A DNA stretch of 45,427 nt from a virus (IMGVR_UViG_3300045988_086513:1-45427), one strand, 5' to 3'. Shown: positions 1 to 45,427, counted from the first letter of the stretch. Program-made: numbers and translations. Notes: a model not told the origin generated them from the sequence alone.

Positions 1-119
1 ATCTAAAACTCCCAGATTCATTGAATGTTATATGTTGGAGTTTGCAGGATGCACAGAGAAGCGGAGGATATTTTATTTTAGGAAAATATTCCACCAAAGA
101 AAAAGCTATAAAGGTACTG
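1..119. repeat. Terminal overlap, copy 1 (identical to 45309-45427)
   Basis: Read base by base, 1-119 equals 45309-45427. This is consistent with a circular-assembly overlap or terminal redundancy. Confidence 0.9.
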
Positions 120-230
120 GATATGATTCAGGATGCATATTGTAAATTTATGTCGGTAAAAAACGATGATGCTTGGGGCGGAAAAGAATCCGCGTTTTAT
201 ATGCCAGAGGATAGCGAGGTGGAAGTATGA
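1..230 (+). CDS. 3' part of the junction-spanning CDS that starts at 45251 (95-aa small protein, paralogue of 41881..42225)
   Basis: The frame is continuous across the 119-nt overlap. The protein ends ...PEDSEVEV, with a stop at 228-230. Confidence 0.6.
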   Translation, partial: LKLPDSLNVICWSLQDAQRSGGYFILGKYSTKEKAIKVLDMIQDAYCKFMSVKNDDAWGGKESAFYMPEDSEVEV

Positions 231-4587: not shown

Positions 4588-6225
4588 ATGGGATTAACGC
4601 CGAAGCAGAAAGCGTTTGCGGATGAATATATCAAGAATGGCGGAAATGCATCTGATGCCGCAATGAAAGCCGGATATTCAGCAACAGTTGCCAAGAATGC
4701 AAAGAAAAACATCTTGGAAAAACGTGGAGTTTTTGAATATATAGCGGAAAAGCAAACTCTTCTGGAAAAGCAAAAAGGCACTGACATCATGTCACTGGCA
4801 GAAATCCAGCAACGCCGTTCCATGATCGCAAGAGGTGAGCTGACCGATTCATTCGGATTCGCCCCGGATTTCTCCGATCAGCTGAAATCTATGAATGATC
4901 TGGAGAAAGCACTTGCCATCAAAGAAACAAAAGAAGAACAGCAGAGGATAGCAGAGAGAGCCAGACTGCAAGAAGTCTATCATCTTGATTTGAGTGTTGT
5001 TCCGGATGTATTCCACAGGATGATTCGGGATATCCGGGCAAAGAAGCATTCGGAGTATATTCTTCCGGGCGGACGTGGATCCATGAAGTCCTCAACTATA
5101 TCACTGGTCATCCCGGAGCTGATCAAAAACAATTCGAACATGCACGCACTGATCCTGAGAAAAGTAGGCAATACCATTAAAGATTCCGTTTACGCTCAGA
5201 TGAAATGGGCACTGGACAAGCTGAACCTGTCAGAGGAATTTACCTGTAAAGTATCTCCCATGGAGATTACATACAAGGCAACCGGACAGAAGATATACTT
5301 TCGTGGTGCTGATGATCCATTAAAGATTAAGTCCATCAAGCCGGAGTTTGGTTATATCGGCATTGTCTGGTTTGAGGAGCTTGACCAGTTTGCCGGTCCT
5401 GAGGAAATCCGAAACATTCAGCAGTCCGCTATTCGTGGTGGCAATGAGGCATATAAGTTTAAATCTTTCAACCCACCAAGGAGTAAGAATAACTGGGCAA
5501 ATGAGTACACAACACAGGCAAAAGAAAAAGATGAGAGTGCAATGGTTCAGCACAGCACATATCTTGATCTGGGAATAGAGCAGGAGTGGCTTGGGGACAT
5601 GTTCCTGAAAGATGCGGAACATCTGAAAGAAACGAATCCAGATGCCTATGACAACGAATATCTGGGACATGCTAACGGTAACGGGGGCAATGTTTTTGAG
5701 TACATTGAAGAGAGAACGATCACGGATGAAGAAATCAGCCACTTTGACAGAATCTATCAGGGCGTTGACTGGGGTTGGATGCCTGATAAATATGCTTTTG
5801 TTCGTCTTTACTATGATGCTGCACGGGAAACAATCTATTTCATTGACGAAATGTACGAGAACAAGAAATCAAATGAATGGACAGCAGGGGAAATCAAGCG
5901 GCGTGGATATGATGACTACGAGATCACTTGCGATTCAGCTGAGCCTAAATCCGTGACAGACTATAGAGACTATGGACTGGCTGCCAGATCTGCGATTAAA
6001 GGTCCAGGAAGTATTGAGTATTCAATGAAGTGGTGGCAGAGAAGAAAGCTCGTGTTTGATCCTGTCAGAACACCGAACGCACGGGATGAATTTAAGAAGT
6101 ATGAGTATGAACGAGATAAGGACGGGAATATTATCAGCGGCTATCCGGATAAAGACAATCACCTGATCGACGCAAGCCGATATGCCACAGAGAGATTATG
6201 GACGAGAAGGGGGCATAGTGCATAA
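4588..6225 (+). CDS. Terminase with fused small-subunit (Terminase_2-like) N-domain and PBSX/XtmB-type large subunit
   Basis: The N-terminus LTPKQKAFADEYIKNGGNASDAAMKAGYS is a TerS HTH. From about residue 150, ILPGGRGSMKSS (Walker A) and a PBSX-type TerL body follow. It is a single 545-aa ORF. Confidence 0.8.
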   Translation: MGLTPKQKAFADEYIKNGGNASDAAMKAGYSATVAKNAKKNILEKRGVFEYIAEKQTLLEKQKGTDIMSLAEIQQRRSMIARGELTDSFGFAPDFSDQLKSMNDLEKALAIKETKEEQQRIAERARLQEVYHLDLSVVPDVFHRMIRDIRAKKHSEYILPGGRGSMKSSTISLVIPELIKNNSNMHALILRKVGNTIKDSVYAQMKWALDKLNLSEEFTCKVSPMEITYKATGQKIYFRGADDPLKIKSIKPEFGYIGIVWFEELDQFAGPEEIRNIQQSAIRGGNEAYKFKSFNPPRSKNNWANEYTTQAKEKDESAMVQHSTYLDLGIEQEWLGDMFLKDAEHLKETNPDAYDNEYLGHANGNGGNVFEYIEERTITDEEISHFDRIYQGVDWGWMPDKYAFVRLYYDAARETIYFIDEMYENKKSNEWTAGEIKRRGYDDYEITCDSAEPKSVTDYRDYGLAARSAIKGPGSIEYSMKWWQRRKLVFDPVRTPNARDEFKKYEYERDKDGNIISGYPDKDNHLIDASRYATERLWTRRGHSA

Positions 6226-13175: not shown

Positions 13176-13334
13176 TTGTTTGGAGACTGAAAGTTTGGTG
13201 GCAGGAAAAGCGCAGGGCAGTACGTAGGAATGTATAACCGAGTTCCGAATACGTGCTGTTTATCGGTGATATAGTGACTTCCTCTAGTAGTCAATAAGTG
13301 AACGTGCTGAAATGGTTCTTCCAAACATGTACAT

Positions 13335-13406
13335 CGCAGGATAGAGAAACGGAATCTCGCAAGGTTCATACCCTTGAGACTGGCGGTTCGAATCCGTCTC
13401 CTGCAA
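13335..13406 (+). tRNA. tRNA-Met (CAT) with initiator-like features
   Basis: A full cloverleaf folds by hand: D stem GAGA/TCTC, anticodon arm CAAGG-TTCATAC-CCTTG, T arm GGCGG-TTCGAAT-CCGTC. It has a C1-A72 mismatch and A11:U24. Confidence 0.8.
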
Positions 13407-13530
13407 TTTATCTGCTCAAAGCTATGCTGTTTGTTCACAGGCGGTCTATGACTTGGGTGGATTGCCCTCCCATGGGGGAATGGTTATTGCTTATCCTGAT
13501 GACTGCTGTGCGGTCCGAAAAGCATAATAA

Positions 13531-13614
13531 TGTGGCTTCGCCAAGTGGTAAGGCACCGGGCTTTGATCCCGGGAGAGGAACACTCATTCATTGGTTCGAA
13601 TCCAATAGCCACAG
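13531..13614 (+). tRNA. tRNA-Gln (TTG) with a 17-nt variable region
   Basis: Acceptor TGTGGCT/AGCCACA, D arm GCCAAGTGGTAAGGC, anticodon arm CCGGG-CTTTGAT-CCCGG and T arm ATTGG-TTCGAAT-CCAAT. There are 17 nt between the anticodon and T stems. Confidence 0.7.
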
Positions 13615-13690
13615 CTACCCCGCCGGAGGTTTACCCGGCTTAATCCATTACCGCTGACGGGCGGTTAATAATCACGTTTAGGAGGATGTT

Positions 13691-29130: not shown

Positions 29131-29395
29131 ATAGAACGATGTAGATTATTACCGTTAGTCACAGGTTAGTCACAAAACAATTATGATGCAAGTCTGGAAC
29201 ACCGCAAAAACAAGGGATTTCGCTAAAAATGGAAAATAAAGTACATTAAGTATGAGATAAAATAAGCAAGCATTGGAAAACACCCGCAAAATGTGGAAAA
29301 AGCCTGTAAAATCAATGGTTTGCAAGTGACTGATAGAACGATTTAAAGTGAATAAATGCAAGATAAACAGGAACGGTTAGTCACAGTTAGTCACA
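29131..29395. promoter_or_regulatory. attP-like region with integrase arm-type repeats
   Basis: Tandem GTTAGTCACA at 29154-63 and 29165-74, and again at 29376-85 and 29386-95. ATAGAACGAT at 29131-40 and 29333-42. The core is AT-rich. Confidence 0.5.
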
Positions 29396-30554
29396 AAAAT
29401 GGAACCTTTATTTTTTCGATTTCCGTGCGGAGTTCTTCCAGAGTCCTATGCCCATATACGGCGTTTGTGATATCATTTCCAAAAGAATGCCCAAGCATTC
29501 GTTTACGATCATTTTCACGAACGCCGTATTTTTCACATAAAGCAGAAAAAGTGTGCCGGCAGTCATGAGGAGTGTGCTTCGGGTTTCCGACAATTCCCAA
29601 TCGTTCCAATGTTGGATAGAAATGTGCACGCCGGTGATGCGTCTGTGTGTAAGGATAGAGTTTTCCATTTTGAGACAAAACTTTTTGCTTGGCAAAATCA
29701 TAAATTGCAGGATGAATTGGAACAACTCTGTTTTTTCCAGACTTTGTCTTGATACCGCCCTGAAAATAATGTTCTTCAAGGTTAGTTGTTAATTTAAGGA
29801 CTTCACCAATTCTCCAGCCAGAATAACACATAATGAGAATAAGCTGCACTTCTGGATCATCCGTATTGCACCACAGGATCTGCAGTTCCTGATCAGAAAA
29901 AGGCGTTCCGTGTTCCACGTCATCCTTTGAGTTTATAGTTACATACAATGCTTTATTTTCAGAGACGATTTCTGCATAGATGGCATATTTGTACATTTGC
30001 TTAAAAAGTATCAAGAGTGCGGAGAGACTCGACTTTTTCAGTGTGCAGTCATCAATCACCTTTTGCAGATCAGGGGCTTTCAGGTCTTCAAATATGCATT
30101 CGTGGATAGAGGCAGTTCTTTTGTATGCAGACTGGTAAGATGCTTTGGAACTACGGGATAATTCAGTATCTTCTGGAAATTTCCATGCCATAAACTGTTC
30201 GTATACTTCAGAGAATGTAAATTTATGTATTTCCGGATGCTTTTCTTCCACACCTTTAATTGTATTGTAATCTGAGATAATACGATGTATGAGAGAATCT
30301 ACATCTGTTGTAGGAGATATTTCAAGGGTTTCTTCCATGCCTGGCTGATATGTACCAGCTTTATAGGCAGTAAGAACCGTAAATCCTTTCAGATAATCAT
30401 CCACATAACAGATTGCCGGTGGACGGACTGTTTTTCCGGTTTTATCAATGGTAGCTGGTGGATGCACGGCATAACAATTTCGCCGCCCTTTACCAAGATA
30501 CCGGATGCTCCCGAAGTTATTTGGCAGTTTGGGATATTTCTTTCTTTTTGCCAT
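29391..30554 (-). CDS. int: Tyrosine integrase (387 aa)
   Basis: The C-terminus HDCRHTF...LGHS...VYGH carries the R-H-R-Y catalytic signature. The start MAKRKKYPK has an AAGGAAG RBS. Confidence 0.85.
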   Translation of the reverse strand: MAKRKKYPKLPNNFGSIRYLGKGRRNCYAVHPPATIDKTGKTVRPPAICYVDDYLKGFTVLTAYKAGTYQPGMEETLEISPTTDVDSLIHRIISDYNTIKGVEEKHPEIHKFTFSEVYEQFMAWKFPEDTELSRSSKASYQSAYKRTASIHECIFEDLKAPDLQKVIDDCTLKKSSLSALLILFKQMYKYAIYAEIVSENKALYVTINSKDDVEHGTPFSDQELQILWCNTDDPEVQLILIMCYSGWRIGEVLKLTTNLEEHYFQGGIKTKSGKNRVVPIHPAIYDFAKQKVLSQNGKLYPYTQTHHRRAHFYPTLERLGIVGNPKHTPHDCRHTFSALCEKYGVRENDRKRMLGHSFGNDITNAVYGHRTLEELRTEIEKIKVPFL

Positions 30555-30613
30555 AATATCATCTTCCTTTCTTAAAATTGGGTACAAAAATAACAGACAC
30601 ACAAATGTTCTGG

Positions 30614-30715
30614 TTGTATGTCTGCTCCGAAGATGATACAATATGTTTGCGTTTGAAGCATCTCTTCGGAGATTCTTGAGCCGTCCTTGTGCTGGTAACA
30701 CAGGGGCGGTTTTTT
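30614..30715 (+). ncRNA. Candidate plus-strand small RNA antisense to the int leader
   Basis: TTGTAT (30614-19), a 17-nt spacer, then TACAAT (30637-42). A UUCG hairpin lies at 30660-73. An 11-bp terminator stem (30681-91/30699-709) is followed by T6. Its G-U pairs make it specific to the plus strand. Confidence 0.4.
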
Positions 30716-30716
30716 A

Positions 30717-32204
30717 TTATAATTTTCTCAAATTGTTGCGAGGGCCTTTGAACAGGCAGACTGTGTATGGATCAGGCATTTCGTAATCGCCCCACAGAGT
30801 ATGCAAGATATCCGATGTTCTGATCTCAGGATCAGTAGCAGAACTGAGTGGGATATCGAGTTCAGCAGACTGACGAAATTCTTCTGCGAGCATAGTTTTA
30901 TTGAATTCGGCTGTTGGATCAATAGAAAGCACCAATCGCTCCAAGTCATCAATATTTACTTTAAAAAATTCTTTTCGAAGATTTACTTTATTAAGTCGTT
31001 GCTCATTTAGCATATCATGCATTTTTTTCTCAAGTCCGACAGCATCTTTTGAAAAAATAAAGCTGTGAACATCGAATTTAAACGGAACACTTGCACTTCC
31101 CAGTTCGTTCACTCTGTCTTGAGGATCTAGTCGGCGGGTCATACCTATTTTGAATACATCTTTACCGAAAGAACCTAAGTTACTAATGATGTATACATTA
31201 CCTGCTTTTCCATTCTGGAGATTAGTAATCTCTTCTTTTTTAACAGCTACACCAGATAATTGATGTTGAAGTTCTAAAATTTTGGCTTTTAATTTATCAA
31301 CTTCTTCGCTTGAAGATGCCTGTTCTAAGGAAGTTTTTACTTTTTCAATTTCAGCGACATATTTACTTTCTTCTTTTTCAATTTTCTTTCGTTCAAGTTC
31401 AAGAGCCTTTCGCTCTTCTGCCTCTTGTCGCATTTGCTCTTTTAAAGCCATTTGTTCCTGTCGAGCCTGTTCTCTTTTGACATAATAGTTATATTCAATT
31501 TTCACTGCATTAATAAAGAGATATTCAATTTCTCCGACGAACTTGGTAAGTGTGCCAGCTATGCTCTGATTTCCCTCACCTGCGATTTTTAAATATTTTG
31601 CAGTGACGGAATGGACATCATCAATTGACTTCTCAAGTTTTTCATATTTTAAATTGTAAAGAATATTCTGTAATTCTGCTCGTAAAGCGATTACCATTAG
31701 TGAATAAATAGATTTGTTTGCTTTGGTTGTATAGCGAGATTCGTATAAACTAAGCAATTTATCTATTTGTTTCTCATTGTCTTTGTACGCCTTTCTGAGT
31801 TCCTTTACGTCCATAGAATGTAATTGTAAGATTACAGATGGGGCAAGACAATCGAAATCACTTTTATCGTGAGGATTTAAGCGGCAGTTATTGTATGGTA
31901 TGTTAGATGATAAAAAGGTATCTAATGCATATTCTACACTTCGATATAGCTCCTTGTACCGAGATAGTTTATTGGCCTGAGTGGTTACTTGCTTATCTAG
32001 TTTTTGCTGTTGAGCTGATAAAGAGGAAATTTCTTCCCGTTGTTTGGATAAGATTGAATTATTATCAGAAATTTCCTGATTCATTTTGTCAAGGCGTTCA
32101 CTAATTTGAAAATATTCATCTGCGTGCAAAAGTTGTAGTTTTCGTTTTAAGGCTTCATTTTCTTCCTTGATTTTGCCAACTCTAAAAAAATCCAAAAATC
32201 CCAT
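30717..32204 (-). CDS. DUF4041 / T5orf172 (GIY-YIG-superfamily-like) protein, 495 aa
   Basis: A long coiled-coil N-region is followed by NVYIISNLGSFGKDVFKIGMTRRLDPQDRVNELGSASVPFKFDVH, which resembles T5orf172. The RBS is AAAGGAG. Confidence 0.75.
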   Translation of the reverse strand: MGFLDFFRVGKIKEENEALKRKLQLLHADEYFQISERLDKMNQEISDNNSILSKQREEISSLSAQQQKLDKQVTTQANKLSRYKELYRSVEYALDTFLSSNIPYNNCRLNPHDKSDFDCLAPSVILQLHSMDVKELRKAYKDNEKQIDKLLSLYESRYTTKANKSIYSLMVIALRAELQNILYNLKYEKLEKSIDDVHSVTAKYLKIAGEGNQSIAGTLTKFVGEIEYLFINAVKIEYNYYVKREQARQEQMALKEQMRQEAEERKALELERKKIEKEESKYVAEIEKVKTSLEQASSSEEVDKLKAKILELQHQLSGVAVKKEEITNLQNGKAGNVYIISNLGSFGKDVFKIGMTRRLDPQDRVNELGSASVPFKFDVHSFIFSKDAVGLEKKMHDMLNEQRLNKVNLRKEFFKVNIDDLERLVLSIDPTAEFNKTMLAEEFRQSAELDIPLSSATDPEIRTSDILHTLWGDYEMPDPYTVCLFKGPRNNLRKL

Positions 32205-32226
32205 ACGCTTTTTTCTCCTTTGTTTT

Positions 32227-32691
32227 TTATCCAGCAGAAATTATTCGCATAACCGCGAACGGTTCAAAATAAATAACATAATTGTCAACAGCAACACACA
32301 CGCCGTATTTAGATCTGTAGCATCGAATAGCTTCTCTCAGGTATTCTTCTGTAGCATCCAGAAAATCTGCCATCTCATATAGATTTCTGCATCCGGCTTC
32401 ATAGGCTCTGGTCAGACCGGTTAATCCGATCTTGAGGTTATAACCGTATAATCTGGCACGGTATTCCTGCTTCTGTTTCATAATATTATCCTGATCCAAA
32501 ATATCCCCGGAACTGGTACGATCATGTCCAATCTCTTCGGCAAGCACGCAAGATTTCTCGGCTTGTGTTTCTATATCTTTTCGGATTGCTATCCGTTTTC
32601 CTTTAAGCAGACCGTCATGTTTGGTAAGTTTTTTCTCTTTTACCAATAGACCATCCTGATCGGCAGCAGTCAGTAACTGTTCATATGTCAA
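32227..32691 (-). CDS. ImmA/IrrE-like metallopeptidase-family protein (154 aa)
   Basis: GKRIAIRKDI...CVLAEEIGHDRTS...YEAGCRNLYEMADFLD is typical of prophage ImmA-like proteins. The motif here is AEEIGH, not HExxH. Confidence 0.65.
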   Translation of the reverse strand: MTYEQLLTAADQDGLLVKEKKLTKHDGLLKGKRIAIRKDIETQAEKSCVLAEEIGHDRTSSGDILDQDNIMKQKQEYRARLYGYNLKIGLTGLTRAYEAGCRNLYEMADFLDATEEYLREAIRCYRSKYGVCVAVDNYVIYFEPFAVMRIISAG

Positions 32692-32722
32692 TAAGCATCA
32701 CTCCTTAAACGGAAATAAAAAA

Positions 32723-33001
32723 TCAACAATAGAAGCTGATATTTTTGAAGGTTGCATACCAGAGATCAAGAATATCCTTGCTTCGAGCTTCTATGGTTTG
32801 CATGATAAAGCGGAGCTGTTTTGCAGGAATTTTGGATTTATTATGGCAAAGTAGACATTTACCATTTTGGGTAATCCAAATCTTGGTTGCAGTAGGTGAA
32901 GGAACTCCTTCACACACATGAACATGTACTGGTTCTAAAGGATCGTTTTCGTTCATCCAAAAATATATAACATATGAGCCAATCTTAAAAACTCGAGGCA
33001 T
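32723..33001 (-). CDS. DUF4160-family protein (92 aa)
   Basis: IYFWMNENDPLEPVHVHV... is characteristic of DUF4160. Confidence 0.7.
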   Translation of the reverse strand: MPRVFKIGSYVIYFWMNENDPLEPVHVHVCEGVPSPTATKIWITQNGKCLLCHNKSKIPAKQLRFIMQTIEARSKDILDLWYATFKNISFYC

Positions 33002-33275
33002 CGTCTATTCCTCCTTCAAAACCGCCTTCACGTGCTAACTGCATAATGATGTGGGCTACAGAAGATAAAAAATCCTGAAAATATTTAATTTCTTCGTCAG
33101 AAAAACCTTCTATATTTTCCCATCTATATTCTGGAAGCCAACAGGTAGCAGAATGAAAGCCGCCATAAACAGGTTTTTCAATACGCACTTCTACTTGCTC
33201 TTTTCCATCTTTTTCGATGGATTCAGAGTGAACTATTTCTGTGTTATCGTTAAGAGTCATAAATGGATACATCAT
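32985..33275 (-). CDS. Hypothetical protein (96 aa)
   Basis: The start at 33275 follows an AAAGGAG RBS. The gene overlaps the DUF4160 gene by 17 nt. Confidence 0.5.
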   Translation of the reverse strand: MMYPFMTLNDNTEIVHSESIEKDGKEQVEVRIEKPVYGGFHSATCWLPEYRWENIEGFSDEEIKYFQDFLSSVAHIIMQLAREGGFEGGIDDASSF

Positions 33276-33291
33276 AATAAAAATCTCCTTT

Positions 33292-33783
33292 CTATTCCCA
33301 TTCTGAATCATCATTCATAATATCAAGATCATGCTGAACACCCTCAGGTGTCTGCGCAACGTCTGTACGGGCATGGGCGGCGAGAACATCGATAGTAGTA
33401 ATGTTATCTGATTCTTCGGATGGTTCCTCTATCTGTGGAGCAGAATCACGAAGTTCGATAATATGATCGTATTCTTTCTGGAGAACTGTAGTAACCATAT
33501 CTTTACCGTGAGCATCAAGTTCGCGGTATTTTTTTATTATATTTTCAAATTCCTCTGGGGACGCTTCATTTTTATATAATTGTTTAGTCTCATCTTGAAA
33601 GAGGTAATTTGCATCACAATGTAAAATATCGAACAAATCATATAAAAGAGTTGCACGAGGGGAATTAACATCTGTTTCCCAACTTCCAATAGCACTTTGA
33701 CTAACGCCCAATCTTTCAGCTAATGCTGGCTGTGTAATACCAAGTTCTTTACGCTTATCCCTTAATCTACTTCCAAAACTCAT
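33292..33783 (-). CDS. XRE-family (CI-like) phage repressor (163 aa)
   Basis: LRDKRKELGITQPALAERLGVSQSAIGSWE is an HTH motif. The gene is divergent from a cro-like gene. Confidence 0.8.
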   Translation of the reverse strand: MSFGSRLRDKRKELGITQPALAERLGVSQSAIGSWETDVNSPRATLLYDLFDILHCDANYLFQDETKQLYKNEASPEEFENIIKKYRELDAHGKDMVTTVLQKEYDHIIELRDSAPQIEEPSEESDNITTIDVLAAHARTDVAQTPEGVQHDLDIMNDDSEWE

Positions 33784-33805: not shown

Positions 33806-33918
33806 ATATTACTACAAAAAAATGGTACAGTCAATAAAAAACCAGAAAAACTGATAAAAACATATTGACAAACCAGAAAAAAACTGATATAATATGCAGA
33901 TGTACCAGAAAAACAGGT
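33806..33918. promoter_or_regulatory. Genetic switch: back-to-back promoters with three ACCAGAAAAA operators
   Basis: Rightward promoter: TTGACA (33865-70), 17 nt, TATAAT (33888-93). Leftward promoter: TTGACT (33834-29), 17 nt, TAATAT (33811-06). Operator repeats lie at 33841-55, 33872-88 and 33904-18. Confidence 0.65.
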
Positions 33919-34172: not shown

Positions 34173-34313
34173 ATGCTTGAAAAACTTTCTACAAAAGAAT
34201 TAGTAGAAGAGTTAAAGAAAAGAGAAGGTGTAAAAACAGAATATGCCGAACCGCATCAGGACAAGAAGTTGTCCGTCAATGGTTCGGCAGTGATCTTGGT
34301 TGTTGTTGATTAG
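34173..34313 (+). CDS. BC1881-like small protein (46 aa)
   Basis: STKELVEELKKREGVKTEYAEPHQDKKLSVNGSAVILVVVD matches the BC1881 family pattern. Confidence 0.55.
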   Translation: MLEKLSTKELVEELKKREGVKTEYAEPHQDKKLSVNGSAVILVVVD

Positions 34314-34516
34314 CCAATACGTCTATATGGATAAACGCCTTTTACATGAGAAGCTAAATAGCTTCCATGCGAAGAAGCTGACATAAGTCCACGGTAAACA
34401 GATTCTGGTACTCCTGAATACGCATACAATCCACCACGATTGAATGCAACATAAAGAGTGCCGTTCTCATAGCCAACGCTTGCGATATTGGAAGAAGAAA
34501 CAGGAATCATATTCAT
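34310..34516 (-). CDS. KTSC-domain protein (68 aa)
   Basis: VSSSNIASVGYENGTLYVAFNRGGLYAYSGVPESVYRGLMSASSHGSY is a KTSC domain. Confidence 0.75.
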   Translation of the reverse strand: MNMIPVSSSNIASVGYENGTLYVAFNRGGLYAYSGVPESVYRGLMSASSHGSYLASHVKGVYPYRRIG

Positions 34517-45250: not shown

Positions 45251-45427
45251 ATGTTAATCAGAAGTCAGGATAAAACAGCGCTGGTAAAGTTTGAAAACAT
45301 TGTAGTCAATCTAAAACTCCCAGATTCATTGAATGTTATATGTTGGAGTTTGCAGGATGCACAGAGAAGCGGAGGATATTTTATTTTAGGAAAATATTCC
45401 ACCAAAGAAAAAGCTATAAAGGTACTG
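45251..45427 (+). CDS. 5' part of the junction-spanning CDS (continues at 120..230 of the window)
   Basis: AAGGAGG RBS. MLIRSQDKTALVKFENIVVNLKLPDSLNVICWSLQDAQRSGGYFILGKYSTKEKAIKVL... Confidence 0.6.
   Translation, partial: MLIRSQDKTALVKFENIVVNLKLPDSLNVICWSLQDAQRSGGYFILGKYSTKEKAIKVL
45309..45427. repeat. Terminal overlap, copy 2 (identical to 1-119)
   Basis: Same 119-nt string as the window start. Confidence 0.9.

What the first reader, a model, noticed from the sequence alone, without database searches (positions are those of the whole stretch)
30717..32204. DUF4041/T5orf172 protein between integrase and immunity genes: candidate prophage-encoded defence
This is a 495-aa protein. It has a long coiled-coil region (EQARQEQMALKEQMRQEAEERKALELERKKIEKEE) and a C-terminal T5orf172-type domain of the GIY-YIG superfamily (NVYIISNLG...FKIGMTRRLDPQDRVNELG...PFKFDVH).

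It occupies the classic lysogenic-conversion slot and is co-oriented with int, the ImmA-like gene and the repressor. No minus-strand terminator separates it from int. Single-gene nuclease-like proteins at this locus frequently act in superinfection exclusion or abortive infection, but I know of no defined mechanism for this architecture.
Basis: partly seen in the sequence, partly recalled or inferred. Interest (0 to 1): 0.65.

Follow-up and report, generated by a model that had tools for sequence, protein, structure and literature searches.

The report
Phage-encoded SNIPE-like (PD-λ-1) defence nuclease
This gene of a temperate gut-bacterium phage is a divergent relative of SNIPE (PD-λ-1), a known bacterial nuclease that cuts the DNA of incoming phages as it is injected, so it is an ordinary although unusual-looking member of an already described defence family.

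Summary
It is the last gene of the leftward repressor operon and lies next to the integrase in a complete circular siphovirus-like genome of a Lachnospiraceae host.

It matches the PADLOC PD-Lambda-1 models (E 5e-77). Its linker helix and GIY-YIG/T5orf172 nuclease are 46% identical to E. coli SNIPE (PD-λ-1), including the catalytic Glu (SNIPE E414 = E392 here). A mechanism for this architecture was published in 2026: SNIPE is a membrane-anchored nuclease that cleaves phage DNA during injection and spares an induced resident prophage.

Two SNIPE modules are not demonstrably present. There is no transmembrane segment. Pfam DUF4041 is not detected, and the N-terminal 245 aa alone give no PD-Lambda-1 hit. 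The mid-domain is all-helical and resembles DUF4041 only weakly.

Sister proteins with the same core carry a TM anchor, a Zn-ribbon or a short MG[LF]F-type N-terminus like this one.

The slot between repressor/ImmA and recombinase recurs in many Clostridia prophages and in phages EJ-1 and CDMH1.

Verdict: a new member, from a divergent TM-less subclade, of a known defence family. Its likely role is superinfection exclusion or defence in lysogens. No function was tested.

The parts
30717..32204 (-). CDS of the 495-aa SNIPE-like (PD-Lambda-1 family) protein, stop codon included
   Evidence: ORF list. PADLOC PD-Lambda-1 E 5e-77. PHROG 1847 E 8e-97. More than 7,500 homologues found.
32166..32204 (-). 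N-terminal motif MGFLDFFRVGKIK (aa 1-13). It stands where relatives carry a TM anchor. It is a candidate membrane- or partner-targeting peptide (inferred).
   Evidence: No TM: Kyte-Doolittle 19-aa maximum is 1.01, against 2.3-3.4 in SNIPE, EJ-1 and CDMH1. The motif is conserved in the clade. Among 84 full-length representatives the N-termini are TM 53, MGLF-type 14, Zn-ribbon 10 and other 7.
31908..32123 (-). Long N-terminal helix, aa 28-99
   Evidence: AF2 model with pLDDT 89-97 over this stretch.
31560..31907 (-). All-helical middle domain, aa 100-215, at the position of DUF4041. It is diverged, and its homology to DUF4041 is weak.
   Evidence: AF2 helices 111-120, 134-155, 161-183 and 190-211. 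Pfam PF13250 is absent. There is no PADLOC hit for aa 1-245 or 100-245. hhalign of mid-domain against mid-domain gives Prob 28%, P 6e-4 over 40 columns.
31215..31559 (-). Linker helices, aa 216-330 (EQARQEQMALKEQMRQEAEERK...), homologous to the SNIPE helix downstream of DUF4041
   Evidence: BLASTP to SNIPE aligns from aa 254 onward at 46% identity. AF2 predicts helices 216-295 and 299-330.
30855..31202 (-). GIY-YIG-superfamily (T5orf172/MUG113) nuclease domain, aa 335-450. Key residues are Y338, K352-I353-G354, R357/R358, E392 (= SNIPE E414) and N405.
   Evidence: Pfam hits. Invariant and near-invariant columns in 76 sequences. E414 mapping. Domain model pLDDT 92. The best PDB fold hits are GIY-YIG proteins, but weak (E 0.3-1.6).
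30720..30842 (-). Disordered C-terminal tail, aa 455-495. It is conserved in some close relatives and absent from the 467/468-aa ones.
   Evidence: pLDDT 42-57. Alignment A1.
32213..32221 (-). Shine-Dalgarno region (AAAGGAGAA) upstream of the ATG. Only 22 nt separate the ImmA stop from this ATG.
   Evidence: Sequence read directly.
30678..30712 (.). Stem-loop directly after the stop codon. It looks like a terminator on the + strand only (T-run on +). On the mRNA strand it is a hairpin without a U-tract.
   Evidence: Terminator scan. Sequence. RNA fold -15.2 kcal/mol, z -3.5.
32227..33783 (-). Upstream genes of the same tightly packed leftward operon: HTH repressor 33292..33783, orf109 32985..33314, DUF4160 32723..33001, ImmA-like metalloprotease 32227..32691
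   Evidence: ORFs. Pfam HTH_3 and DUF4160. PHROG 87 metallo-protease and repressor PHROGs. All gaps are 31 nt or less, or the genes overlap.
33806..33834 (-). Promoter-like site upstream of the repressor. It faces a perfect-consensus + strand promoter at 33865..33893 for the cro-like gene.
   Evidence: Consensus scan. The total number of sites is not above the shuffled expectation, so this is suggestive only.
29391..30557 (-). Tyrosine integrase downstream (probable start MAKRKK...)
   Evidence: Pfam Phage_integrase. Sequence around the start.

Best explanation
The gene encodes a divergent, TM-less homologue of SNIPE (PD-λ-1), a single-protein anti-phage nuclease. It is carried by a temperate siphovirus-like phage of a Lachnospiraceae host.

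It is the last gene of the repressor operon, so it would be expressed in the lysogen (inferred from gene packing). There the C-terminal GIY-YIG nuclease would cut the DNA of superinfecting phages as it enters the cell. The resident prophage's own induction would not be harmed, because its DNA is never injected.

The N-terminal MG[FL]LDFF peptide, long helix and helical middle domain would replace the TM anchor and DUF4041. They would position the nuclease at the injection site and keep it off the host chromosome.

Shown here: homology of the linker and nuclease, conservation of the catalytic residues, absence of a TM, and the conserved prophage slot.

Inferred: expression in lysogeny, defence activity, localisation, and action at injection.
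For: - PADLOC PD-Lambda-1 hits: PDLC03976 at E 5e-77 and PDLC03977 at E 2e-71. For scale, SNIPE scores 658 bits, CDMH1 gp42 526, EJ-1 ORF3 371 and this protein 258.
- The reference L001:2176-3678 carries all nine residues mutated in the SNIPE paper at the same numbering.
- BLASTP to that reference gives 46% identity over aa 254-446, E 4e-50.
- SNIPE's essential E414 aligns with E392, which is near-invariant in 76 sequences.
- Profile-profile alignment of the window clade against canonical SNIPEs is collinear over aa 9-478, E 4e-89.
- Sister proteins with the same core (45-67% identity) carry N-terminal TM anchors or lipoprotein+TM extensions. The clade as a whole therefore follows the membrane-tethered design.
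- Context: among the genome-contig loci, the first large downstream gene is a tyrosine integrase in 26/74 and a serine recombinase in 7/74. The upstream neighbour carries HTH_3 in 30/75, Peptidase_S24 in 14/75 and Peptidase_M78 in 10/75.
- In 60 of 80 IMG/VR contigs the gene lies within 3.5 kb of the contig end.
- The same order occurs in S. pneumoniae EJ-1 and C. difficile CDMH1.
- Literature: SNIPE cleaves λ DNA during injection, needs the nuclease Glu and DUF4041, and does not affect induction of a resident λ prophage (PMC13190303). A PD-Lambda-1 homologue protects S. thermophilus by more than 3 logs (PMC12322248).
- A decaying copy of the locus (L004) keeps the nuclease ORF intact at 98% identity, while ImmA/DUF4160 are deleted and orf109 carries a stop codon.
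Against: - There is no TM segment. In E. coli, SNIPE lacking its TM goes to the nucleoid and is toxic (PMC13190303). This protein therefore needs another restraint that is not identified here.
- Pfam DUF4041 is absent.
- The N-terminal 245 aa alone give no PD-Lambda-1 hit, whereas SNIPE aa 1-270 give 268 bits.
- Similarity of the mid-domains is weak: Prob 28%, and 1 of 60 block-shuffled controls reached the real score.
- The N-terminal peptide has only a moderate hydrophobic moment (0.45 over 11 aa) and a conserved Asp.
- Promoter calls are not above chance.
- There is no expression or phenotype data.
Confidence: 0.6

Rival explanations
1. It is a cytoplasmic sensor-nuclease acting as an abortive-infection or post-entry defence. 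On this view it has kept only the SNIPE effector (linker plus GIY-YIG). Its different helical N-terminal half senses a phage product inside the cell rather than acting at the membrane during injection.
For: There is no TM. The N-terminal half is not recognisably SNIPE-like. The middle domain is all-helical. TM-less SNIPE binds the nucleoid in E. coli (PMC13190303).
Against: The same core occurs with TM anchors in most sister proteins: 53 of 84 representatives. The N-terminal peptide is conserved exactly where those anchors sit. The profile alignment to SNIPE is collinear throughout.
Confidence: 0.2
2. It is a phage housekeeping or selfish nuclease with no role in defence. Candidates are a GIY-YIG/T5orf172 homing-type endonuclease, a recombination or replication factor, or a Bro-like DNA-binding regulator.
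For: T5orf172/MUG113 domains also occur in homing-endonuclease-like and Bro-type viral proteins. The BFVD fold hits are mostly such proteins.
Against: The gene sits in the lysogeny operon next to int, not in the replication or late modules, and the phage already has RecE/RecT. Homology extends through the SNIPE-specific linker, not only the nuclease fold. The gene is retained in a decaying prophage.
Confidence: 0.08
3. It is an SMC/'chromosome segregation ATPase'-like structural protein, as some database records annotate its relatives.
For: Weak PADLOC JetC/MukB-like hits, E 3e-6 to 4e-5. Annotations such as 'chromosome segregation ATPase' appear in phage records.
Against: The hits cover only helical, low-complexity coiled-coil stretches. 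No ATPase motif or domain is detected by Pfam or NCBIfam.
Confidence: 0.01

Closest known systems
SNIPE (PD-λ-1) of E. coli (Vassallo et al. 2022, PMC9519451; Saxton et al. 2026, PMC13190303)
   Same: Both are single-gene systems of about 500 aa. Both have the order N-terminal targeting region, helical region, middle domain, long helix, C-terminal GIY-YIG/T5orf172 nuclease. The linker and nuclease are 46% identical and the catalytic Glu is conserved. Both are carried on prophages or other mobile elements: an E. coli phage, PhiR26_1, carries a copy.
   Different: This protein has no transmembrane anchor. Pfam DUF4041 is not detectable and the PADLOC models do not recognise the N-terminal half. 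Relative to SNIPE there is an 8-residue deletion where 'VEGSRAEG' sits, and the predicted middle domain is all-helical. The host is a Gram-positive-type Clostridia bacterium, so a ManYZ-type partner cannot be assumed.
DUF4041 proteins of Firmicute prophages: S. pneumoniae EJ-1 ORF3 and C. difficile CDMH1 gp42
   Same: They occupy the same slot and orientation: repressor, this gene, then integrase. They share the nuclease and linker, with 28-29% overall identity.
   Different: They have an N-terminal hydrophobic anchor and a Pfam-positive DUF4041. Their PADLOC scores are much higher, 371-526 bits.
TM-less SNIPE homologues described bioinformatically in Saxton et al. 2026
   Same: That paper reports that 34% of 474 homologues lack a predicted TM. 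Some of them have neither a TM nor a globular N-terminal domain.
   Different: The paper lists DivIVA-like, T3SS-ATPase-like, PH and DUF4428 N-termini. I did not find the short MG[LF]F-type peptide or the Pfam-negative middle domain of this Clostridia clade mentioned in the text or the held supplements. None of the TM-less forms was tested experimentally.
PD-Lambda-1 of Streptococcus thermophilus (PMC12322248)
   Same: It is a homologue in a Firmicute with experimentally shown protection against siphoviruses.
   Different: It is chromosomal at a native locus, not in a prophage lysogeny operon. Its sequence was not compared here.

Membership tests
SNIPE / PD-Lambda-1 | Significant match to the family's detection models (PADLOC PD-Lambda-1 HMMs) | tested here: met
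   PDLC03976 gives E 5e-77, 258 bits, aa 14-450 against profile positions 38-473 of 491. PDLC03977 gives E 2e-71. The score comes from the C-terminal half, because aa 1-245 alone give no hit.
SNIPE / PD-Lambda-1 | C-terminal GIY-YIG (T5orf172) nuclease with the catalytic Glu (SNIPE E414) | tested here: met
   Pfam T5orf172 3.7e-14 and MUG113 2.2e-19. E392 aligns with E414. Y338, G354, R357/R358 and N405 are invariant or near-invariant. Fold hits to GIY-YIG structures are only weak.
SNIPE / PD-Lambda-1 | Long α-helix linking the middle domain to the nuclease | tested here: met
   BLASTP alignment starts at aa 254 in the helix. AF2 predicts helices 216-295 and 299-330 at pLDDT 88-97.
SNIPE / PD-Lambda-1 | Central DUF4041 domain (Pfam PF13250), required for defence, DNA binding and tape-measure recognition in SNIPE | tested here: inconclusive
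   PF13250 is not found at E<=10. A home-made DUF4041 HMM finds 41 proteins of the collected set but none from the window clade. There is no PADLOC hit for aa 100-245. hhalign of mid against mid gives P 6e-4 over 40 columns in the expected register. Reversed controls score 14-15 against 27.7, and 1 of 60 block shuffles reaches the real score. The full-length profile alignment is collinear.
SNIPE / PD-Lambda-1 | N-terminal transmembrane anchor (present in about 66% of homologues; essential for self-protection in E. coli SNIPE) | tested here: not met
   The best 19-aa Kyte-Doolittle window scores 1.01 and lies in the middle domain. SNIPE scores 3.37, EJ-1 2.27 and CDMH1 2.60, each at the N-terminus. 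No DeepTMHMM run was possible.
SNIPE / PD-Lambda-1 | Alternative membrane targeting in TM-less homologues | not testable with these tools
   Only indirect evidence is available. The MG[FL][FL]D[FL]F[RK] peptide is conserved. It recurs in 14 of 84 representatives in place of a TM. Its hydrophobic moment is moderate.
SNIPE / PD-Lambda-1 | Protection against phage by cleavage of DNA during injection | not testable with these tools
   This needs plaque assays, labelled-DNA injection assays and localisation experiments.
Prophage lysogeny-module 'moron' / superinfection-exclusion gene | Located in the immunity region, co-transcribed with the repressor, and dispensable for the lytic cycle | tested here: inconclusive
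   The position and tight packing with repressor and ImmA are shown. The slot is conserved in related loci. Transcription and dispensability were not tested.

The most novel reading that the evidence does not exclude
The large Clostridia prophage clade to which this protein belongs may be a distinct SNIPE-like subfamily. It would keep the SNIPE linker and nuclease but use a different all-helical recognition domain. In the TM-less members, a short N-terminal MG[LF]F-type peptide would dock the protein peripherally on the membrane or on a host or phage entry protein. If so, injection-coupled DNA cleavage would not need an integral membrane anchor or a canonical DUF4041. Alternatively, the effector may have been re-wired to a different trigger.
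Probability: 0.3. Interest if true: 0.5.

Novelty: new member of a known kind. Interest (0 to 1): 0.3.

Why it matters
The result places a SNIPE/PD-λ-1-type nuclease inside the immunity operon of a temperate phage of human-gut Lachnospiraceae. The same arrangement is widespread in Clostridia prophages. Injection-stage DNA cleavage is therefore probably a common prophage-encoded superinfection barrier in the gut microbiome.

The TM-less, Pfam-DUF4041-negative form is a natural test case for one question. How is a non-sequence-specific nuclease kept off the host chromosome and aimed at incoming DNA without an integral membrane anchor?

For annotation, these proteins are currently labelled 'hypothetical', 'helicase' or 'chromosome segregation ATPase'. 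They should be called PD-Lambda-1/SNIPE-like.

Tried and rejected
- NCBIfam gave no hit.
- The PDB sequence search gave only chance-level hits to OXA β-lactamases, E 0.04-0.07.
- The PDB fold search with the full-length model returned only long-helix proteins, all E > 0.08. It is uninformative because the helices dominate the model.
- The BFVD search found T5orf172 proteins and one 372-aa SNIPE-like protein labelled 'helicase'. It did not resolve the middle domain.
- The PDB fold search with the nuclease domain alone ranked GIY-YIG proteins first (UPF0213, Slx1, HIGLE), but at E 0.3-1.6. This is consistent, not proof.
- JetC/SMC hits were rejected as coiled-coil composition matches.
- I tested whether orf109, which is co-conserved with the gene in L004, is a partner. 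It occurs in only 3 of 160 related loci and is a pseudogene in L004, so this was rejected.
- Single-query phmmer searches for integrase and repressor neighbours were too insensitive. I replaced them with Pfam scans of the neighbours.
- No close cultured phage relative exists in INPHARED. The only matches are human-faecal 'Bacteriophage sp.' contigs at about 81% identity over 13-20% of the query.
- Promoter scans are not enriched over shuffles, 17 sites against 18.1 expected. I make no promoter claim beyond the divergent pair at the repressor/cro junction.

Full report
**1. Observation**

The ORF is real. It runs 30717..32204 on the minus strand, is 495 aa long and starts with ATG. A GGAG Shine-Dalgarno lies 8-11 nt upstream, and only 22 nt separate it from the stop of the ImmA-like gene. 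Close homologues (73-97% identity) begin at the same Met.

Pfam finds T5orf172 (aa 336-425, 3.7e-14) and MUG113 (aa 351-425, 2.2e-19). It does not find DUF4041 (PF13250), even at E<=10. The 'DUF4041' in the title is therefore not verified directly.

The gene is co-oriented with the integrase (29391..30557), the ImmA-like metalloprotease (32227..32691; PHROG 87), a DUF4160 gene, a 109-aa ORF and an HTH repressor (33292..33783). All are packed with gaps of 31 nt or less, or overlap.

A 14-bp-stem hairpin lies 4 nt after the stop codon (30678..30712). Its T-run is on the + strand, so on the mRNA strand it is a stable stem-loop without a U-tract (-15.2 kcal/mol, z -3.5). 'No minus-strand terminator' is right only in the strict sense.

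**2. What the window is**

The first and last 119 nt are identical, which marks a circular assembly of about 45.3 kb. The genome encodes:
- terminase, portal, major head protein;
- a 948-aa tape measure protein and a 994-aa tail protein;
- an endolysin;
- RecE/RecT.

No ORF longer than 225 aa lies between the head gene and the tape measure gene. From general knowledge of sheath sizes, this argues for a non-contractile, siphovirus-like tail.

The closest relatives are uncultured human-faecal phage contigs. The nuclease gene occurs at 98% identity in a Lachnospiraceae MAG. It occurs at 51-69% identity in 80 genome loci, almost all from Lachnospiraceae, Oscillospiraceae or other Clostridia of gut origin.

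**3. Identity of the protein**

PADLOC models for PD-Lambda-1 match at E 5e-77 and 2e-71 over aa 14-450. PHROG 1847, of unknown function, matches at 8e-97.

PD-λ-1 was found in a functional selection in E. coli (PMC9519451). It was renamed SNIPE in 2026 (PMC13190303). That paper describes it as follows:
- an N-terminal TM anchor;
- a central DUF4041 that binds DNA and probably the tape measure protein;
- a long helix;
- a GIY-YIG nuclease with essential E414.

SNIPE cleaves phage DNA during injection. It does not affect a λ prophage induced inside the cell.

The PD-lambda-1 gene annotated in Escherichia phage PhiR26_1 (L001:2176-3678) has all nine residues mutated in that paper at the same positions. 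I used it as the SNIPE reference.

BLASTP of the window protein against this reference aligns only aa 254-446, at 46% identity and E 4e-50. SNIPE E414 corresponds to E392 here. In a 76-sequence alignment Y338, G354 and N405 are invariant, and R357/R358, E392 and H396 are nearly so.

**4. What differs from SNIPE**

(a) There is no TM. [quoted passage not shown] SNIPE, EJ-1 ORF3 and CDMH1 gp42 score 2.3-3.4 at their N-termini.

(b) The middle domain is not demonstrably DUF4041.
- PF13250 is present in those three proteins but absent from the window protein and its close relatives.
- An HMM I built from canonical DUF4041 regions finds 41 of the collected proteins and none of the window clade.
- The N-terminal 245 aa alone get no PD-Lambda-1 hit, whereas SNIPE aa 1-270 score 268 bits. 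The 258-bit full-length score therefore comes from the linker and nuclease.
- For calibration, SNIPE scores 658 bits, CDMH1 526 and EJ-1 371.
- Profile-profile comparison of the two middle regions gives a 40-column match in the expected register (window 163-202 against the helical half of DUF4041). It scores Prob 28% and P 6e-4. Reversed controls score 14-15 against 27.7, and 1 of 60 block-shuffled controls reached the real score.
- A full-length profile alignment is collinear over aa 9-478 with an 8-residue deletion, but its confidence is low N-terminal of about aa 235.

The AF2 model (pLDDT 85.4) shows:
- an N-terminal helix at 6-25;
- a long helix at 28-99;
- an all-helical middle domain at 111-211;
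- helices at 216-295 and 299-330;
- an α/β nuclease domain at 335-450;
- a disordered tail.

I conclude that the middle domain is either a strongly diverged DUF4041 or a replacement. These tools cannot settle which.

**5. The clade**

An exhaustive search found 2,925 cluster representatives at E<=1e-3. Proteins sharing the window's core motif (IYxLMVxALxAELQNIL) have highly variable N-termini. Among 84 full-length representatives (both canonical and window-type), a simple classification gives:
- TM: 53;
- Zn-ribbon (MAKCxxCGK...): 10;
- a short MG[LF]F-type peptide like the window's: 14;
- other: 7.

This mirrors the published picture of a variable N-terminal adapter, with 59% of homologues having one TM, 7% two and 34% none. 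The window's N-terminal peptide (MGFLDFFRVGKIK) is conserved in its subclade and moderately amphipathic. That it targets the membrane or an entry-associated partner is an inference. The argument is that it occupies the position of the anchor in sister proteins.

**6. Context**

In the genome loci, the first sizeable downstream gene is a tyrosine integrase in 26 of 74 and a serine recombinase in 7 of 74. The upstream neighbour has HTH_3 in 30, Peptidase_S24 in 14 and Peptidase_M78 in 10 of 75.

In 60 of 80 IMG/VR viral contigs the gene lies within 3.5 kb of the contig end, with a median of 1.8 kb. This fits a position next to int at a prophage end.

S. pneumoniae EJ-1 and C. difficile CDMH1 have the same order: repressor, DUF4041 protein, integrase.

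In the Lachnospiraceae MAG locus L004, a deletion between two 'YVIYF' repeats has removed most of DUF4160 and ImmA, and orf109 carries a stop codon. The nuclease ORF is nevertheless intact at 98% identity. This is one anecdote suggesting the gene is retained for its own sake.

**7. Mechanism proposed**

In the lysogen the gene is transcribed with the repressor (inferred). The protein waits in an inactive state and cleaves the DNA of superinfecting phages, probably long-tailed ones, as it enters (by analogy with SNIPE).

The prophage itself is safe on induction because its DNA is not injected. This was shown for SNIPE and λ, not for this protein.

The weak points are the missing anchor and the uncertain recognition domain. 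E. coli SNIPE lacking its TM is toxic, so this protein must be restrained in some other way.

A cytoplasmic, post-entry or abortive mode is the main rival. A housekeeping or homing nuclease is unlikely given the location and the SNIPE-specific linker homology. The SMC-like annotations are coiled-coil artefacts.

**8. Novelty and score**

PADLOC-type tools would call this PD-Lambda-1. The family, its prophage association and the existence of TM-less homologues are all published. PD-Lambda-1 has also been shown to protect a Firmicute (PMC12322248).

I therefore rate it a new member of a known kind, belonging to a divergent, abundant, uncharacterised Clostridia subclade. Interest is 0.3. The residual interest lies in how a TM-less, DUF4041-poor version is targeted and kept harmless.

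Noticed in passing
window 1-119 and 45309-45427: There is an exact 119-nt terminal overlap, so the window is a circular assembly of a complete phage genome of about 45.3 kb.
   Followed up: yes
window 13334-13407 and 13531-13615: tRNA-Met (CAT) and tRNA-Gln (TTG) genes sit on the + strand inside the head/packaging module.
   Followed up: no
window 4588-6225: One 545-aa ORF matches small-terminase PHROGs at aa 1-122 and large-terminase PHROGs at aa 137-543. It may be a TerS-TerL fusion or an ORF-calling artefact.
   Followed up: no
L004 7605-9668 versus window 30536-33295: In a Lachnospiraceae MAG the same nuclease gene (98% aa identity) sits in a degraded module. A deletion between two 'YVIYF' repeats fuses the DUF4160 N-terminus to the ImmA C-terminus, and orf109 has an in-frame stop. 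The flanks beyond this region are unrelated, which indicates mosaicism.
   Followed up: partly
window 30720-30842 (aa 455-495): The C-terminal tail (DILHTLWGDYEMPDPYTVCLFKGPRNNLRKL) is predicted disordered but is conserved in relatives of 76-87% identity. It is missing from the 467/468-aa relatives. Its function is unknown.
   Followed up: no
window 32723-33314: A DUF4160 gene and an overlapping 109-aa ORF without family hits lie between the repressor and ImmA. orf109 occurs in only 3 of 160 related loci, so it is not a conserved partner of the nuclease.
   Followed up: partly
window 30678-30712: The hairpin right after the nuclease stop codon has its T-run on the + strand. It would terminate transcription running antisense from the integrase side into the immunity operon. 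On the sense strand it may only stabilise the mRNA 3' end.
   Followed up: partly
window 33806-33893: A back-to-back promoter-like pair sits at the repressor/cro junction. The + strand site is a perfect TTGACA-17-TATAAT with an extended -10 TG. The listed cro-like ORF start (TTG at 33865) overlaps it, so the real start is probably the Met at about 33940.
   Followed up: no
window 34310-34516: A KTSC-domain ORF (Pfam 3.8e-21) lies on the minus strand inside the otherwise + strand early region.
   Followed up: no
L036, L056, L076: A few homologue-bearing contigs are binned as Muribaculaceae, Opitutales or Bacteroidales MAGs, although all other loci are from Clostridia. This probably reflects binning contamination of prophage contigs.
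   Followed up: no
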